This document shows, piece by piece, positions 30,617 to 41,785 of a DNA stretch of 41,785 nucleotides. Source of the stretch: a virus. Lineage: Duplodnaviria > Caudoviricetes. The translations under genes and the position numbers were made by a program. The stretch's first letter is position 1; each line of letters opens with the position of its first letter. A model generated the notes under the pieces. The model was not told where the DNA came from and searched no databases. It saw only the letters and a program-made list of their open reading frames with translations. Location of the stretch: the IMG/VR virus record IMGVR_UViG_3300010376_000019, positions 1 to 41,785 of that record; one strand, given 5' to 3'.

Positions 30617-31567
30617 TTATGCAGCGGTGTCGGGCGTGCTCGGCGGCTTCGCATCGGGTGGTGGGGGGGCGGGGGGGACACTGCCGGGCGGCTCGTTCCC
30701 GCGACCGCCGGCATCGGCGGCAGCATCCACCCCCCGCCGCCGTCGCAGCGTTTCGGCCAGCTTTGATTCTCCGGAGCCCGCTGCTGATGGAAATTCAGCC
30801 TCAACGCTCGTCTCTTTCTCGCGGATGGCTGTTAGTAAACCACCGAGCAGCGTCAGATCTTCAAGATCGATATCCTCGATACCCCGGCGCTCCAATTTGT
30901 CGCAGACGGCTGCCGCTGAAATACCGAATTCCGCGAAGGCAGCGAGCGCCCGCTGGCGACCTTCGGTCAACGTCTTCGCATCGCCTGCGGCGACCTTTTT
31001 GGCGACTTCGACAAGCGGATTGATAAAGGCGCGGGGGATGACCCGGAAAATGGCATTCCGCATGGCGATCGAACACGCCGCATTGGCCGTCTGCACCATC
31101 ATATCGTCCGAATATCGGCGTCCATTCCGATCAACGATCCGCCGTCGCGTTTCGGTCACAATCGCGACGTTGCTCTCGACGTCATGCGCCCATCCTTGCG
31201 CGACGACTTCTCGATCCGTCTCAGCGATGATCCGTGCGCCAGCTCGCATGTTTCGATAGGCGATCTGCGCGATCTCGGCGAGACGGACGGATGGCCCCTC
31301 CAAGTTGACTCGCTTATACGATCCATCTTCCTGCCGTTGCTTCCGGGGAAGACTCCAAAAGCAAGCGCTTGCGGTTTCCTGATCAAGCCGGATCATCGTC
31401 AAAGCCATCTGTTTGAAGAGAGCCAGCGAGCGGGGATAGCGGCGCGCGGTGGCGATGGCGACGTCGATCTCACTTCGGGTCAGTACCTCAAGAGCGGTCG
31501 GCGGCAAGCTGACCGGCTCCGGTAGCACGACATCAATCGTCCGCTCCGTCGTTGTTACGTCTGACAT
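30617..31567 (-). CDS. Putative single-strand annealing / recombination protein
   Basis: EIDVAIATARRYPRS...GPSVRLAE...RNAIFRVIP; in an operon with a YqaJ-type exonuclease; function inferred. Confidence 0.55.
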   Translation of the reverse strand: MSDVTTTERTIDVVLPEPVSLPPTALEVLTRSEIDVAIATARRYPRSLALFKQMALTMIRLDQETASACFWSLPRKQRQEDGSYKRVNLEGPSVRLAEIAQIAYRNMRAGARIIAETDREVVAQGWAHDVESNVAIVTETRRRIVDRNGRRYSDDMMVQTANAACSIAMRNAIFRVIPRAFINPLVEVAKKVAAGDAKTLTEGRQRALAAFAEFGISAAAVCDKLERRGIEDIDLEDLTLLGGLLTAIREKETSVEAEFPSAAGSGESKLAETLRRRRGVDAAADAGGRGNEPPGSVPPAPPPPDAKPPSTPDTAA

Positions 31568-31998
31568 GCAATCATCCTTCTAGGCGCCTGCTTGCGCCGC
31601 TGTTTTTGTACTCGCGCCCGCGCACGACTGCAGATGATGCACCGTCGATCCCGATACTGCGGATAGACGTTCCCCTCGTAAGGATGGCCCTTCTTGCAAG
31701 CCGTCTGCTTCGCCAATCGCGCACGGCGATGGAGAATCAAATGAGCGCCCCGACTGAGCAGCTCGAGATTCTCTGGTCGGTTATCGTCGCGGCGTTCATT
31801 TCGATGATGGATGACCATGCCAGTGGGAATCGGGCCACCGAGAGCCTCTTCCATGACAATGATATGCTCAAAGACGTAGCCGTTGGGGGCACTCCGGGGA
31901 TGATCCGCCCGACTGATCTGGATGTAGCCATCTGCCGTCCGGTAACGGCCACCCTTCCAATGGCCGTTTAGGGGCCCTTTCAAGCCGCCGCGGCTCAT
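31555..31998 (-). CDS. HNH endonuclease
   Basis: WKGG...GYVFEHIIVMEEALG...IHHRNERRDDNRPENLEL; C-terminal CKKGH...RCIIC; lower GC. Confidence 0.88.
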   Translation of the reverse strand: MSRGGLKGPLNGHWKGGRYRTADGYIQISRADHPRSAPNGYVFEHIIVMEEALGGPIPTGMVIHHRNERRDDNRPENLELLSRGAHLILHRRARLAKQTACKKGHPYEGNVYPQYRDRRCIICSRARARVQKQRRKQAPRRMIACQT

Positions 31999-32909
31999 GC
32001 CACCTTCCGCTTGTCGTTCGGGACAAAACGAAGCGTCCGGACGATGGACGCCTTGACGGTGTACGCCTGGCGCTGGGCGGCCTTGTAGGACAGCCGGCCC
32101 AGCTCGCAGATGCCGTGTTCGCCGTTCCCGAGCGCCGTCAGGATCAGGCGCTGCAGGTGCTCTTCGTTCGCTTCGGCTTGCTTCCGCACCGCTTTCGCCG
32201 CCAGCCATTCGCTGACGAAGACCGGATCGACGGGCATCGGGGGCGCCGTCGGCTCGCGCTGGAACCGGCGCAGCGTATCGAGCGACGGCGGATCGTCCGG
32301 CGGGCAGCGATCCCGCTCGACGTAGTCCCGCCAGAAGCGGCCCTCGAGCTGCAGGAGCTCGGCCACGATCTCGTCGTCCCGCTCGACGCGGTAGCAGCGG
32401 AGCCCCCGGCCCCCGAGCAGGACGGGAATCAGGGCGGCTTGCACCGGCGGCATGTTCGGCTGCGCGTCGAGCACGGCGAAGGCGTGATGGACTTGGACGA
32501 GCACGCTCTCGGGGACTTCGTCCGTCCCGTCGTCGCCGTAGGCGGTGGCGTAGACGGCCGGCGCCGGCCCCAAGAGCCCGCTCGTCTTGGCTTCGACGAG
32601 CGTCGCCGGGGCATCCAGGGCGATCCCGTCCACGCTCGCCGCCATCGGCAGCGTCGGGTGGCGATACCAGACTTCGGGCGCGACGGGCCGCCCGAGCTTC
32701 TTCGCCGCGACGCCGACGAGCAGCGGCCCGAGCGCCGAGCCGAGCGCGAGCGGCGTCAGCCCGCCGCCCTCGTCCCCGCCATCGGGCACGCGGCCCGTCT
32801 TCCGCGCCCAGACGTCGCCCGCCGTCTGGAAGGGATCGACGCCGGCAATCGCCGGGGCATCCGAGCCGCCGATGCAATCGCGCCGCCAGGGCGCCAGCTC
32901 TTCCCGCAT
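31995..32909 (-). CDS. YqaJ-like (lambda exonuclease family) recombination nuclease
   Basis: WRRDCIGGSDAPAIAGVDPF, ASVDG, VEAKT and QVHH motifs. Confidence 0.9.
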   Translation of the reverse strand: MREELAPWRRDCIGGSDAPAIAGVDPFQTAGDVWARKTGRVPDGGDEGGGLTPLALGSALGPLLVGVAAKKLGRPVAPEVWYRHPTLPMAASVDGIALDAPATLVEAKTSGLLGPAPAVYATAYGDDGTDEVPESVLVQVHHAFAVLDAQPNMPPVQAALIPVLLGGRGLRCYRVERDDEIVAELLQLEGRFWRDYVERDRCPPDDPPSLDTLRRFQREPTAPPMPVDPVFVSEWLAAKAVRKQAEANEEHLQRLILTALGNGEHGICELGRLSYKAAQRQAYTVKASIVRTLRFVPNDKRKVA

Positions 32910-33776: not shown

Positions 33777-34178
33777 ATGGCGGCGTCGAACGTCAAGCGA
33801 GCCTGCAGTGATCGACGCGTCGCCCGGCTGATCGCCCGCCGCCACGCCGAGATGGCCGAGCTGATCGATACGATCGGGCACGCCGCCGATCTCGATCAGC
33901 TGCTCTTGGACTTGTCCGACGAGCTGCGAACGGTGGCCGAACGCCGCTGCGCGCTCCGCGACGACGAGCCCGAGCCGGCACCCTTGGGCGGCCCCGATGA
34001 CGAATGGCTGACGATCCAGCAAGTGGCCCGGCTAACGGGCCGGGCCGTCTCGACGATCAAGCACGGCCCCCGGGACGCCATCCCCGGGCGCCGGCAGCTC
34101 GTCCCGAATGGGGCCGTCCGCTGGTCCCGGCGGGCCATTGAACGGTGGATCGAGAGCTTCAGCAGCCATAGCACCTGA
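33777..34178 (+). CDS. AlpA/excisionase-like HTH protein
   Basis: EWLTIQQVARLTGRAVSTIK...VRWSRRAIERWI. Confidence 0.7.
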   Translation: MAASNVKRACSDRRVARLIARRHAEMAELIDTIGHAADLDQLLLDLSDELRTVAERRCALRDDEPEPAPLGGPDDEWLTIQQVARLTGRAVSTIKHGPRDAIPGRRQLVPNGAVRWSRRAIERWIESFSSHST

Positions 34179-34193
34179 GCGGGGACCATGGGC

Positions 34194-34232
34194 TTGCTAT
34201 CATTACCTCGATACCCGTATACTCCAGGGTAT
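34194..34232 (+). promoter_or_regulatory. Sigma70 promoter with an inverted-repeat operator for the RHH-int operon
   Basis: TTGCTA-N18-TATACT; ATACCC (34211) and GGGTAT (34227) flank the -10; ATG 7 nt after the -10. Confidence 0.6.
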
Positions 34233-34416
34233 GAAAACACGCACGGCCACCCCGGTGGCTCCCCCCAAAGTCGACGACGATATCAAGACGTCGCTGAAGC
34301 TCCCCCCCGCACTCTGGCGGGGGGCGAAGATCCGCGCCGCCGACGAGCGGACGAACCTGCGCGCGATCATCATCCGCGCGCTCACCGCCTACCTGGCGAC
34401 GCCGGCCCGGAGCTAG
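34231..34416 (+). CDS. Arc/CopG-like ribbon-helix-helix protein
   Basis: IKTSLKLPPALWRGAKIRAADERTNLRAIIIRALTAYL. Confidence 0.8.
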   Translation: MKTRTATPVAPPKVDDDIKTSLKLPPALWRGAKIRAADERTNLRAIIIRALTAYLATPARS

Positions 34417-34418
34417 CG

Positions 34419-35564
34419 ATGGCGAAGAACCTCCTAGCCGTCGAACCCGGGATCTGGCGCCGCATCTCCAAGGCGGGCGTCGTCTCCCGGTTTCTCACCA
34501 TCACCTACCAGCTGAAGGGCCAGACCAAATTCGAGCGCACCGGAACGAGCTCCGTCGTCGACGCCCGCAAGCTCCGCGCCATCCGCCTGGCCGCCACGGC
34601 CACGGGGAGCCCGCTGCCCTGTGGGCTCGTCGTCAACGTGCTGCTCGATCGCGTGCTCGCCTACTACGTGGCGAACAACCTGCCCTCGCTCCGGACCGTC
34701 CACGGCCATGTCGCCCAGCTCCGCGCCGCCATCGGCCCCATGAAGGTGAAGGATCTGTCGCCCGAGCGGATCGAAGCCATGCAGGACGCCTGGCAGGCGA
34801 TCACGGGCCGGCACGCCATCACCAACGCCACGATCAACAAGCGGTGTGAGATCCTGCGCCGCGCATTCAACCTGGCCAAGCAGAAGGGCACGATCGCGCA
34901 GGCCCCCTACATCCGCCGACTCAAGCCGCGGCCCATTCAAGCTCGCTACATCCAGGGCGCCGATCAGGCGCTACTCTCCGAGTACCTGCCGGACTACGTC
35001 GTCGTGCTGGTCGAATTCGCCCGCCTGTTTGGGGTTCGCAAAGGCCAACTCTCACGGACGCTGAAGACGATGGCTGATCTGGGCCGCGCCATGGTCAGCT
35101 GGCCGGGCGACGAAGCCAAGAACGAACAACCCCACCCGATGCCGCTCGACGGGCCCGGGCTCGAGATCGTCGACCGGCAGCTCGCGATGAATCCCTGGTG
35201 CCCGTACCTCTTCCACGGCCGCTACTGCCGGCCCGGCCGCACGCCGAACAAGCACTACGGCTGCGTCGGCGACTTCAAGAAGGCGTGGCAGACGGCGTGC
35301 CGCAAAGCCGGGATGCCCGTCGGGCGCAAGGCGGGCGGCATCGTCTTCCATCATACCCGGAACACCGCCGTCACCGACATGCTCTCTGGCCCTACGCCGA
35401 TGACGCCGCACGACGCCATGGCGATCTCGAATCACAAGACGCTCAGCATGCTGAAGACCTACAATCTGGGGAACGTCGAAGCGCTCCGCGCGCGCCTGGC
35501 CGCCAGCCGGGTCGACCGCACGCAGCACGTCGAGACGTTCCACGACGCCGCGAAAAAGGCGTGA
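34419..35564 (+). CDS. int: Tyrosine integrase
   Basis: Catalytic R (GVRKGQL), K (EAKN), HxxR (FHHTRN), H (SNHKT) and Y (KTYN). Confidence 0.93.
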   Translation: MAKNLLAVEPGIWRRISKAGVVSRFLTITYQLKGQTKFERTGTSSVVDARKLRAIRLAATATGSPLPCGLVVNVLLDRVLAYYVANNLPSLRTVHGHVAQLRAAIGPMKVKDLSPERIEAMQDAWQAITGRHAITNATINKRCEILRRAFNLAKQKGTIAQAPYIRRLKPRPIQARYIQGADQALLSEYLPDYVVVLVEFARLFGVRKGQLSRTLKTMADLGRAMVSWPGDEAKNEQPHPMPLDGPGLEIVDRQLAMNPWCPYLFHGRYCRPGRTPNKHYGCVGDFKKAWQTACRKAGMPVGRKAGGIVFHHTRNTAVTDMLSGPTPMTPHDAMAISNHKTLSMLKTYNLGNVEALRARLAASRVDRTQHVETFHDAAKKA

Positions 35565-35585
35565 TCCCGATCCCCCCAAAGCGCC

Positions 35586-35867
35586 GGATGCAAAACCAGA
35601 GCCAACCCAACTCCTTGCATTCTCATTGCATCCTGGTGCAAGGTCCGATATCAGGCCGCCAAATAGTTGATTTTCCTGCGCCCGTAGCTCAGCATGGACA
35701 GAGCGGCTGGCTTCGAATCCGATGCCCGCGCACCCCGCATAGCACCAGCCCGCACCACCCTGAAGAAGGAATCTGCGATTTCACTGGGTTAGGTGCGGCC
35801 TGGTGCCGGCGCCCGGCTGGCATTTCACGCCGGATGCCCGGGCATCCCTTGCGCCCGCCTTGCATCG
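35586..35867. other. attP region with arm-type repeats and an IHF site
   Basis: TTGCATCC-like repeats at 35586 (inverted), 35615, 35626 and 35860; IHF consensus AATCAACTATTTG on the minus strand at 35660-35672; 16-bp palindrome at 35832-35847. Confidence 0.75.
35678..35717 (+). tRNA. 5' half of tRNA-Arg(UCG), a fragment forming the attP identity block
   Basis: GCGCCCG TA GCTC AGCATGGACA GAGC G GCTGG CTTCGAA gives the acceptor 5' strand, D-arm, anticodon 5' stem and loop; the following TCCGA cannot close the stem and no T-arm follows. Confidence 0.85.
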
Positions 35868-36046
35868 GGGGCCGCCCCTTTTCCCCCTGTTCCCCCTGTT
35901 CGGCTCGGGGTGGGGCTCACCCGAACGCCCCCGTTCGGCCCTGCCAAGCGCACCCCGCCCCCGGCAAGACGGCTGCCAGCATCCCCCGCGGGCGGCCGCC
36001 TTGAGCAGCAGCCCGCGGCGCGGCCGTGGCGGGAAGGGGTGGATGG

Positions 36047-36613
36047 ATGCCAGACGTCGACGATCGAGACGTGCTCGACCTGTCTGGGGACACGGCCGCG
36101 CCCCGGCCCGTCCCCGTCACGATCTCGGCGACGGCGGCCTATACGGCGGCGCAGCTCGGGGTGGCCCGGTACTACCGCATGCGGCTCGAAGGGCGCTCCG
36201 AGCTCATGCGGGCGCCCCGCCGCTTCGATCGGTGCTGGTACGACCAAATCGTCGGCGCGCTCGCCGAGATGGCCCTGGCCGTCCATCTCGGGGTGCGCTG
36301 GTGCCCGACGCTCGGGCCCGACGACGGCACGGGTGACGTGGCGGGCTGGCAAGTCAAAGGCGTCGTCTGGCATCTGTTCGGCTCGATCGTCGCCACCGGC
36401 CCCCATCTGATCATCCCGGGCCATGAGACGACGCCCCGGCCCTACGTGCTCGTCTATGGCAACGGGTTCACCGACTGGCAGATCGCCGGCTGGCTGCCCG
36501 CGGCGCTCGCCCGCGTCGATGATTGGCAGGCCTACGAGCAGAGCCGCAAAGCCTGGTGGGTGCCGATGCGCGTCCTGCGGCAATGGCCGCCCGAGCTGGG
36601 GGCGACAGCATGA
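36047..36613 (+). CDS. Phage protein, possibly PD-(D/E)XK nuclease-like
   Basis: GALAEMALA...GDVAGWQVK...YVLV...IAGW pattern. Confidence 0.55.
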   Translation: MPDVDDRDVLDLSGDTAAPRPVPVTISATAAYTAAQLGVARYYRMRLEGRSELMRAPRRFDRCWYDQIVGALAEMALAVHLGVRWCPTLGPDDGTGDVAGWQVKGVVWHLFGSIVATGPHLIIPGHETTPRPYVLVYGNGFTDWQIAGWLPAALARVDDWQAYEQSRKAWWVPMRVLRQWPPELGATA

Positions 36614-41580: not shown

Positions 41581-41785
41581 ATGGAAACGACACGTATTCT
41601 CACCAGCCGCAAGACGGTGGACGGCACGCGCACCACCGCCCACGTCGACTTCGGCGTGGCCAACGCGCGGGGCCGGGCGATCGGCGTACGGATCGAGACG
41701 GCGGTCGTGACGTTCGCGGCGCTGCCCGCCGATGCCACGTCGGGCTGGGTCCGGGCGCCCGGCACCTACTACCTGCTCTGCATGC
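41581..41785 (+). CDS. N-terminal part of the junction-spanning hypothetical protein (continues to 263)
   Basis: GGAGGT RBS, ATG at 41581, open to the window end and in frame with 45-263. Confidence 0.75.
   Translation, partial: METTRILTSRKTVDGTRTTAHVDFGVANARGRAIGVRIETAVVTFAALPADATSGWVRAPGTYYLLCM
41663..41785 (+). repeat. Terminal direct repeat, right copy
   Basis: Identical to 1-123. Confidence 0.95.

What the first reader, a model, noticed from the sequence alone, without database searches (positions are those of the whole stretch)
35626..35717. attP carries the 5' half of tRNA-Arg(UCG) plus a candidate promoter, so the prophage would rebuild and drive a host tRNA
Seen: 40 bp match a tRNA 5' half and end exactly at the anticodon loop CTTCGAA, 113 bp after int. 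Upstream is TTGCAT-N17-TATCAG followed by GC-rich GCCGCC, resembling a stable-RNA promoter with a discriminator. Known: most tRNA-targeting integrative elements carry the 3' part, so the host promoter is retained, and anticodon-loop crossover is a known integrase class. Inference: integration separates the host tRNA 3' half from its promoter, and the phage supplies the 5' half and its transcription. This could put CGA decoding under prophage control and could create a chimeric tRNA.
Basis: partly seen in the sequence, partly recalled or inferred. Interest (0 to 1): 0.75.

Follow-up and report, generated by a model that had tools for sequence, protein, structure and literature searches.

The report
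Phage attP carrying tRNA-Arg front half
This soil phage carries, just after its integrase gene, the first 40 bases of a bacterial arginine tRNA gene behind a likely promoter, so on inserting it would rebuild that tRNA from the front rather than the usual back, an uncommon but already described way of integrating.

Summary
Observation confirmed. 35678-35717 is the 5' half of tRNA-Arg(TCG), ending at the anticodon loop, 113 bp after an intact tyrosine integrase in a circular 41.8-kb phage. It is an attP of the reversed (5'-fragment) class. The integrase lies in a 100/100 clade of 12, all 5'-type, across four tRNAs. Three integrated clade members show both junctions: an orphan 5' half on the host side and a whole tRNA behind int. 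Arm-site pairs sit at fixed distances from the loop. The candidate promoter is plausible: a Binatia tRNA-Asp promoter is nearly the same, and the motif is in 9 of 12 5'-type arms versus 0 of 10 conventional ones. Its -35 is also an arm repeat, and the nearest relative lacks the motif. No lysogen or exact host was found (Binatia likelier than Methylomirabilota). The phage copy differs from candidate hosts only in variable D-loop positions. Control of CGA decoding is not supported: candidate hosts keep TadA and tRNA-Arg(ACG), the phage avoids CGA, and the clade uses other tRNAs too. The class is published (Islander 159 of 3919; phage HTVC028P), and this scan noted it on at least 8 other genomes.

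The parts
33876..34178 (+). Excisionase-like ORF (likely recombination directionality factor)
   Evidence: phrog_66, excisionase and transcriptional regulator, E 5e-7
34194..34223 (+). Sigma-70-like promoter candidate for the small-ORF + int operon; possible source of read-through into the tRNA
   Evidence: only consensus hit in 34000-36200, with no terminator hit in that range; 6.8 bits in the host model
34230..34416 (+). 61-aa ORF directly before int, ribbon-helix-helix-like by eye
   Evidence: sequence only; no Pfam, NCBIfam or PHROG hit
34419..35564 (+). Tyrosine integrase, 381 aa, catalytic R207-K234-H311-R314-H339-Y348 present
   Evidence: phrog_1 E 3e-23; 133 homologues, most with PF00589; residues
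35612..35633 (+). P-side pair of likely Int arm-type sites (TTGCA repeats 11 bp apart, -98/-87 from the loop centre)
   Evidence: pair found on this side in 8 of 9 phage records, at -87 to -119 in 7 and shifted to -146/-135 in L019; arm function is inferred
35626..35654 (+). Candidate promoter TTGCAT-N17-TATCAG; its -35 is the second arm repeat
   Evidence: 11.7 bits against a host leave-one-out median of 9.9; 9.6 bits, top 0.9% of window background, with the look-alike host promoter left out of training
35660..35672 (-). Exact IHF consensus site over the predicted transcription start
   Evidence: only exact match in 41.8 kb; consensus recalled, binding untested
35678..35717 (+). 5' half of tRNA-Arg(TCG): acceptor 5' strand, D arm with a one-base-longer D-loop, anticodon stem 5' strand and loop
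35711..35717 (+). Anticodon loop = predicted 7-bp overlap region
   Evidence: identity between orphan half and whole gene ends 0-2 nt past the loop in 4 of 4 integrated elements; arm pairs are spaced from the loop centre
35718..35728 (+). Likely P' core-type site (NCCGAT kept right after the loop in all 4 Arg-TCG phages)
35846..35866 (+). P'-side pair of likely arm-type sites, +136/+147 from the loop centre
   Evidence: +136-138/+147-150 in 8 of 9 phage records and at the orphan junction of L072; family D1
41663..41785 (+). 123-nt repeat of the record's start: assembled as a circle with attP unbroken
   Evidence: one Logan contig spans 34759-37500 without a difference

Best explanation
The stretch holds the first 40 bases of tRNA-Arg(TCG) between two pairs of repeats just after an intact tyrosine integrase gene, and is very likely the phage attachment site (attP), predicted to recombine inside the host tRNA's anticodon loop in the reversed orientation. 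After integration the host promoter and host 5' half would be left as an orphan at the far end of the prophage. The whole tRNA would be rebuilt behind int from the phage 5' half and the host 3' half, and transcribed from phage DNA: likely from TTGCAT-N17-TATCAG, possibly also by read-through from the int operon. The purpose is ordinary rescue of the target gene, as in 3'-type elements. Shown: anatomy of the site, clade-wide conservation, both junctions in three relatives. Inferred: this phage's own junctions, its host, promoter activity, function of the hybrid tRNA.
For: 8 of 8 viral loci with related integrases have a 5' half behind int that ends at the loop. A 100/100 clade of 12 integrases is all 5'-type over Arg(TCG), Arg(ACG), Lys(TTT) and Val(TAC). 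Clade members in G001, G010 and G019 show an orphan 5' half 11,892, 10,267 and 6,232 bp upstream of a whole tRNA that follows int; an element with no hit to the integrase profile in G046 shows the same at tRNA-Arg(TCG) itself, 3,131 bp apart. In L072 the arm pairs are split between the junctions as the model predicts. The phage half joined in silico to host 3' halves gives a fully paired anticodon stem for 7 of 7 hosts with the matching stem and 1-2 mismatches for 5 of 5 others; ARAGORN calls all 12 joins tRNA-Arg(TCG), so only the pairing discriminates. Host tRNA promoters have no fixed base at -7 (G11/A10/T8/C7 of 36), and a G037 tRNA-Asp promoter reads TTGCAA-N17-TATCAG. TTG-N20/21-TA is present in 9 of 12 5'-type arms, 0 of 10 conventional arms and 21 of 1018 background tiles.
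Against: No lysogen of this phage was found, and no junction contig showed in the two runs laid. The exact 40-mer is in no other viral or metagenome record and in none of 401 + 176 genomes. The nearest relative L019 (85% Int, 96% capsid) lacks the promoter motif (5.0 bits, shuffle p 0.5), as do L021 and L027 by the simple rule; L028's site scores 3.9-5.1 bits. The -35 is also an arm repeat, so its conservation need not reflect promoter function. The 12 rows are related, so the p values overstate independence. No RNA data.
Confidence: 0.85

Rival explanations
1. Same attP, but the rebuilt tRNA is made mainly by read-through from the small-ORF + int operon, as described for pTN3; TTGCAT is only an arm site and TATCAG is incidental.
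For: Promoter hit at 34194-34223 and no terminator hit before the tRNA half. In L021 and L032 the half begins 31 and 19 nt after the int stop. L019 lacks the motif. [quoted passage not shown]
Against: The motif is enriched in 5'-type arms (9 of 12 vs 0 of 10) and sits 21-23 nt before the tRNA in L023, L024, L026, L028, L093, L031 and L032, as in many host genes. An integrase operon is usually weak in a lysogen (recalled).
Confidence: 0.2
2. One reading: the phage uses the arrangement to put CGA decoding under its control.
For: One whole copy of this gene type was seen per matching genome; the -35 overlaps an arm site and the start overlaps an IHF consensus, so occupancy could modulate it; I:A wobble reads CGA poorly (recalled).
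Against: A TadA-like gene is in 5 of 5 candidate hosts (NF008113 above cut-off for G001) and tRNA-Arg(ACG) is in G001 and G037. Phage CGA is 1.9% of Arg codons against about 8.5% in crude host ORFs. The clade does the same at three other tRNAs, and conventional 3'-type elements use the same gene.
Confidence: 0.07
3. The half is a decayed phage tRNA gene or a dead attP left from an earlier host.
For: No exact host match, and the D-loop differs from all 49 whole-gene or half copies counted in the Binatia-class loci. After the loop a few bases resemble a T-loop and acceptor end (sequence, by eye).
Against: Differences are confined to variable D-loop positions; integrase, both arm pairs, core and IHF site are intact; the same anatomy holds across the clade, with no 3' half in any of the 8 viral loci. 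The bases after the loop match the core motif of the three sister phages.
Confidence: 0.05

Closest known systems
Pelagiphage HTVC028P (PMC8477408; passages read)
   Same: attP in the intergenic region downstream of int, 40-bp core identical to the 5' end of a host tRNA (Asn); attL and attR verified by PCR; tRNA rebuilt from the phage copy.
   Different: Different host and tRNA; its core is identical to the host whereas this one differs in the D-loop from every candidate; the word promoter does not occur in that paper's main text; I did not compare the two integrases.
Islander islands with a 5' tDNA fragment (PMC4383910; passages and Table 1 read); Zhao and Williams 2002 J Bacteriol 184:859 (text not held; seen only as a citation in PMC1635311 and PMC6563490)
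   Same: 5' fragment upstream of a same-orientation whole tRNA with a tyrosine integrase between; 159 of 3919 islands; anticodon-centred sites are 2083 of 3919.
   Different: Here a tailed phage of an uncultured soil lineage and a whole integrase clade fixed in this orientation; the main text read does not treat promoters.
Archaeal pTN3-like integrases (review PMC8371274; passages read)
   Same: attB is the 5' half of a tRNA gene; the rebuilt gene is expressed from element DNA.
   Different: There the att site splits the integrase gene and the integrase promoter drives the tRNA; here attP lies 113 nt downstream of an intact int and has its own promoter candidate.
KplE1 intS promoter (PMC2951348; abstract and passages read)
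   Same: A promoter overlapping arm-type sites in an att region next to a tRNA gene.
   Different: It drives int and is repressed by Int; here the overlapped promoter points at the tRNA. The int-before-tRNA layout (SIT) is among the rare ones there (SIT + OD under 8% of 1273).
tRNA-dependent lysogeny (PMC10865867; passages read)
   Same: The phage must make good a tRNA gene that its integration breaks and supplies the transcription.
   Different: There the core is about 10 bp and the phage carries a whole tRNA gene; here the core is a 40-nt half and the phage has no whole tRNA.

Membership tests
5'-fragment (reversed-orientation) tRNA-integrating elements | Encodes a tyrosine integrase next to the site | tested here: met
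   phrog_1 E 3e-23; R-K-H-R-H-Y present; no Pfam hit for this protein itself but PF00589 on most homologues
5'-fragment (reversed-orientation) tRNA-integrating elements | attP holds a terminal 5' fragment of a host tRNA gene, from base 1, and no 3' part | tested here: met
   2-3 edits from the nearest host genes
5'-fragment (reversed-orientation) tRNA-integrating elements | Integrated form: orphan 5' fragment upstream of a same-strand whole tRNA with the element between | tested here: inconclusive
   met for 3 clade members (G001, G010, G019) and one element without an integrase hit at Arg(TCG); no lysogen of this phage found
Anticodon-loop crossover class | Shared sequence ends at the 7-nt loop, flanked by core sites, arms spaced from the loop | tested here: met
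Anticodon-loop crossover class | Strand cleavage at the loop borders | not testable with these tools
   needs a recombination assay
tRNA-dependent lysogeny | [quoted passage not shown] | tested here: not met
   40-nt half, 0 whole tRNA genes
pTN3-like integrases | att site inside the integrase gene | tested here: not met
   site starts 113 nt after the stop codon
KplE1-type arm-overlapped promoter | Promoter overlaps arm-type sites | tested here: inconclusive
   overlap is in the sequence, but both the arm sites and the promoter are predictions
KplE1-type arm-overlapped promoter | The promoter drives int and is repressed by Int | tested here: not met
   it lies downstream of int and points at the tRNA

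The most novel reading that the evidence does not exclude
In this clade the replacement tRNA promoter is built out of the recombination site: the -35 is an Int arm repeat (or a third degenerate copy) and the -10 or start site sits on the IHF site. Int and IHF binding would then throttle a host tRNA during excision, and the likeness of this clade's arm sequence to a -35 box would explain how the orientation could flip at least twice, including between sister integrases at tRNA-Gly(GCC).
Probability: 0.15. Interest if true: 0.6.

Novelty: new member of a known kind. Interest (0 to 1): 0.25.

Why it matters
As it stands it is a clean, well-supported example of a minority integration class, and it ties a common soil phage group (18 viral contigs with 82-96% capsid identity) to tRNA-Arg(TCG) of Binatia-like or Methylomirabilota hosts. 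The family holds both orientations, once apparently at the same tRNA in sister integrases, so it is a usable natural set for asking how an element gains a promoter when it flips. If the arm-site promoter is regulated by Int, a prophage's recombination state would set the level of a host tRNA; I did not find that in the 5 literature searches that ran, which cover open-access papers only.

Tried and rejected
Exact 40-mer: 0 hits in viral contigs; in metagenome contigs only L039, a record of the window's length and sequence. The GTDB contig collection was not scanned for the 40-mer; its one scan went to the integrase. Rfam gave no tRNA match for the half, only chance hits. The E. coli-type promoter scan does not call TTGCAT-N17-TATCAG because it demands T at -7; I rejected that filter after finding -7 unconstrained in host tRNA promoters. 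Sequencing runs: 2 listed, no RNA holder listed; X1 may be the source; no junction contig in either, which contigs cannot turn into proof of absence. Capsid search for a prophage: 1 of 401 Binatia-class genomes, at 30% identity; 1 of 201 Methylomirabilota, the binned 40-kb contig that is itself a sister phage. Integrase profile at E 1e-75 in 201 Methylomirabilota: that contig only. An internal deletion between anticodon loop and T-loop was considered by eye and dropped, since the bases after the loop are the clade's core motif. No special fold or terminator downstream of the core (z -1.17). No orphan 5' half for L031 in G403. G534's two halves are a tandem duplication. No PDB relative by sequence. 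IHF beta in G001 scores 110 bits, under the 120 cut-off: inconclusive. L025 was left out of the 12 promoter rows as a near-copy of L023 on the same contig; L030 and L020 duplicate L021 and L019. Supplements of the papers were not read.

Full report
Setting. The window is a whole virus record of 41,785 nt with a 123-nt terminal repeat, so it was assembled as a circle. It has terminase, SU10-type portal and adaptor, a capsid protein, a YqaJ nuclease, a RuvC-like resolvase and an AAA_25 helicase. The integration module is an excisionase-like ORF (phrog_66), a 61-aa ORF with no family hit, and a 381-aa tyrosine integrase at 34419-35564 (phrog_1, E 3e-23) with R207, K234, H311, R314, H339 and Y348.

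Observation. All coordinates hold. The 40-mer runs from tRNA base 1 to the end of the anticodon loop. The window has no whole tRNA and no 3' half. The proposed -35 is the second left-hand repeat.

Relatives. The integrase has 133 homologues among 7996 scored candidates. A 64-row alignment found 8 viral loci and 11 genome loci. All 8 viral loci have a 5' tRNA half downstream of int ending at the loop: Arg(TCG) in 3, Arg(ACG) in 4, Lys(TTT) in 1. The right-hand repeat pair lies at +136-138/+147-150 in 8 of 9 phage records, whatever the tRNA, which fixes the loop as the centre of the site. A tree of 29 integrases puts the window in a 100/100 clade of 12, all 5'-type; the outgroup clade of 10 has 9 rows with a whole tRNA facing int, the conventional layout by position. 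L029, just outside the clade, is conventional: G037 holds two 3' fragments starting at the loop. Its sister L031 has int, repeats, a strong promoter motif and a same-strand whole tRNA-Gly, which suggests a second flip, but its orphan half was not found and only 39% of its columns are filled.

Junctions. Three clade members are integrated with both ends on one contig: G001 (Lys, 11,892 bp), G010 (Lys, 10,267 bp) and G019 (Val, 6,232 bp). In each a lone 5' half lies upstream and the whole tRNA follows int; identity ends 1-2 nt past the loop. G046 shows the same at tRNA-Arg(TCG) over 3,131 bp, ending exactly at the loop, with no hit to the integrase profile. In G001 the orphan keeps a strong host promoter (13.6 bits) and the right-hand repeats, and the whole gene has the left-hand repeats. 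No lysogen of the window phage was found; one contig of run X1, which may be the source, crosses the site unbroken.

Host. No exact match was found. Genes with the same anticodon stem occur in 7 of 401 genomes of G001's class (record title Candidatus Binatia) and 7 of 176 Methylomirabilota. The nearest phage, L019 (85% integrase, 96% capsid), has a half identical to genes in 12 of the 401 and 0 of the 176. L021's half matches one Methylomirabilota gene exactly, and its contig is binned there. Integrated clade members were found in the Binatia-class set only. I put Binatia at about two in three. In the 7 Binatia-type loci no other tRNA lies in the flanks fetched (up to 1.5 kb); in the Methylomirabilota type the gene sits inside a tRNA operon, where the phage promoter would have to drive further tRNA genes.

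Hybrid tRNA. The phage D-loop is one base longer and has C for T at 20a; none of 49 copies counted from the Binatia-class loci has this loop, though C20a is common in Methylomirabilota. A 42-nt contig in X1 differs by one letter and lacks A35694. Joined to host 3' halves, the anticodon stem is fully paired for 7 of 7 matching-type hosts and mismatched for 5 of 5 others. G18, G19 and A20, the arginine identity base (recalled), are kept. Changes confined to variable loop positions fit selection for a working tRNA; the true host may simply share them.

Promoter. I trained a two-box model on 41 first-in-operon host tRNA genes of G001 and G037 (3 rows dropped as element-linked or spurious). Leave-one-out median 9.9 bits; window 11.7, shuffle p 0.015, top 0.5% of 1854 background tiles. 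A host tRNA-Asp gene has TTGCAA-N17-TATCAG. Retrained on 49 rows without it and one more suspect row, the window scores 9.6, top 0.9%. 8 of the other 11 5'-type arms have shuffle p at or under 0.055, against 0 of 10 conventional arms; the simple rule gives 9 of 12 against 0 of 10. These rows are kin, so the p values are generous. Against: L019, L021 and L028 score 5.0-6.4. L019 keeps TATCAG 24 nt before the tRNA but with no well-spaced -35. Read-through from the int operon stays possible, since no terminator was found. In the conventional relatives an IHF-like motif stands next to the tRNA end, and in several 5'-type ones the -10 TAA falls at a similar place (by eye); this is the basis of the novel case and is untested.

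CGA control. A TadA-like gene is present in 5 of 5 candidate hosts and tRNA-Arg(ACG) in both genomes listed, so CGA has a second, weaker reader (wobble rule recalled). tRNA-Arg(CCG) was found in G037 but not among 41 tRNAs of G001. The phage uses CGA for 8 of 415 Arg codons in 17 ORFs, against 8.5% of 1486 in 44 crudely picked host ORFs. The clade treats three other tRNAs alike. Nothing singles out CGA.

Frequency. In viral contigs 10 of 18 matches to the 5'-half pattern and 23 of 36 matches to a 3'-half pattern lack a whole tRNA-Arg(TCG); the patterns differ and prophage ends are mixed in, so this shows only that both kinds are common at this gene. Several of the 5' cases lie next to distant integrases.

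Known. 5'-fragment islands are 159 of 3919 in Islander (PMC4383910). HTVC028P has a 40-bp 5' core downstream of int with PCR-verified junctions (PMC8477408). pTN3-like integrases use the 5' half and express the tRNA from element DNA; the review calls this seldom seen in bacteria (PMC8371274). Zhao and Williams 2002 and Williams 2002 were not held and are cited through other papers. The scan's own notes list 8 similar findings in other genomes and none on this protein or genome; they gave me the Islander and pelagiphage leads, which I read myself.

Verdict. Real, functional-looking attP of a known minority class, in a new clade and host group. Interest 0.25.

Noticed in passing
L031:470-665 and L029:4306-4514: Sister integrases at tRNA-Gly(GCC) appear to use opposite orientations: L029 is 3'-type (confirmed by fragments), L031 looks 5'-type with a strong promoter motif; orphan half not found.
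   Followed up: partly
L042, L043, L046, L053-L058, L074, L083, L129, upstream 80 nt of the tRNA: Many whole Binatia tRNA-Arg genes have arm-like repeat pairs just upstream of their promoter, as if they were already driven from the end of a past 5'-type element.
   Followed up: no
L073:2277-5482: 3.1-kb element in tRNA-Arg(TCG) of G046 with both junctions, its own promoter motif and no hit to the integrase profile; carries a short ORF that looks by eye like a SocA/Panacea antitoxin.
   Followed up: partly
L019:3706-4150, L023:5137-5660, L026:5137-5640: An extra ORF with HNH-like motifs (by eye) is inserted between int and the attP arms in three relatives; L019 also has about 48 extra bases between the arm pair and the core.
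   Followed up: no
window:35993-36005: A short motif ending in CCTTGAG is kept shortly before the first rightward gene in all four Arg-TCG phages although the flanks diverge.
   Followed up: no
window:35718-40211: After integration the host tRNA promoter would point into the phage's resolvase and helicase genes; no terminator was found between the core and 36047, so how these genes stay silent is unexplained.
   Followed up: partly
L009:52-261: A viral contig has a 5' half of one tRNA-Arg(TCG) 95 nt before a different whole tRNA-Arg(TCG), which may combine an att site with a phage-borne tRNA.
   Followed up: no
L004, L007, L011, L012, L014, L016: Distant integrases (24-39 bits to this profile) also sit next to a 5' half or same-strand whole tRNA-Arg(TCG), in both int orientations.
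   Followed up: no
window:41485-41514: Strong sigma-70-like site TTGACA-N18-TATCGT in front of an ORF that runs across the circular join.
   Followed up: no
window:9203-10165: The capsid protein has 18 viral relatives at 82-96% identity, so this is a common, unnamed soil phage group.
   Followed up: partly
window:19964-20440 and 31555-32026: Two HNH_3 endonuclease ORFs.
   Followed up: no
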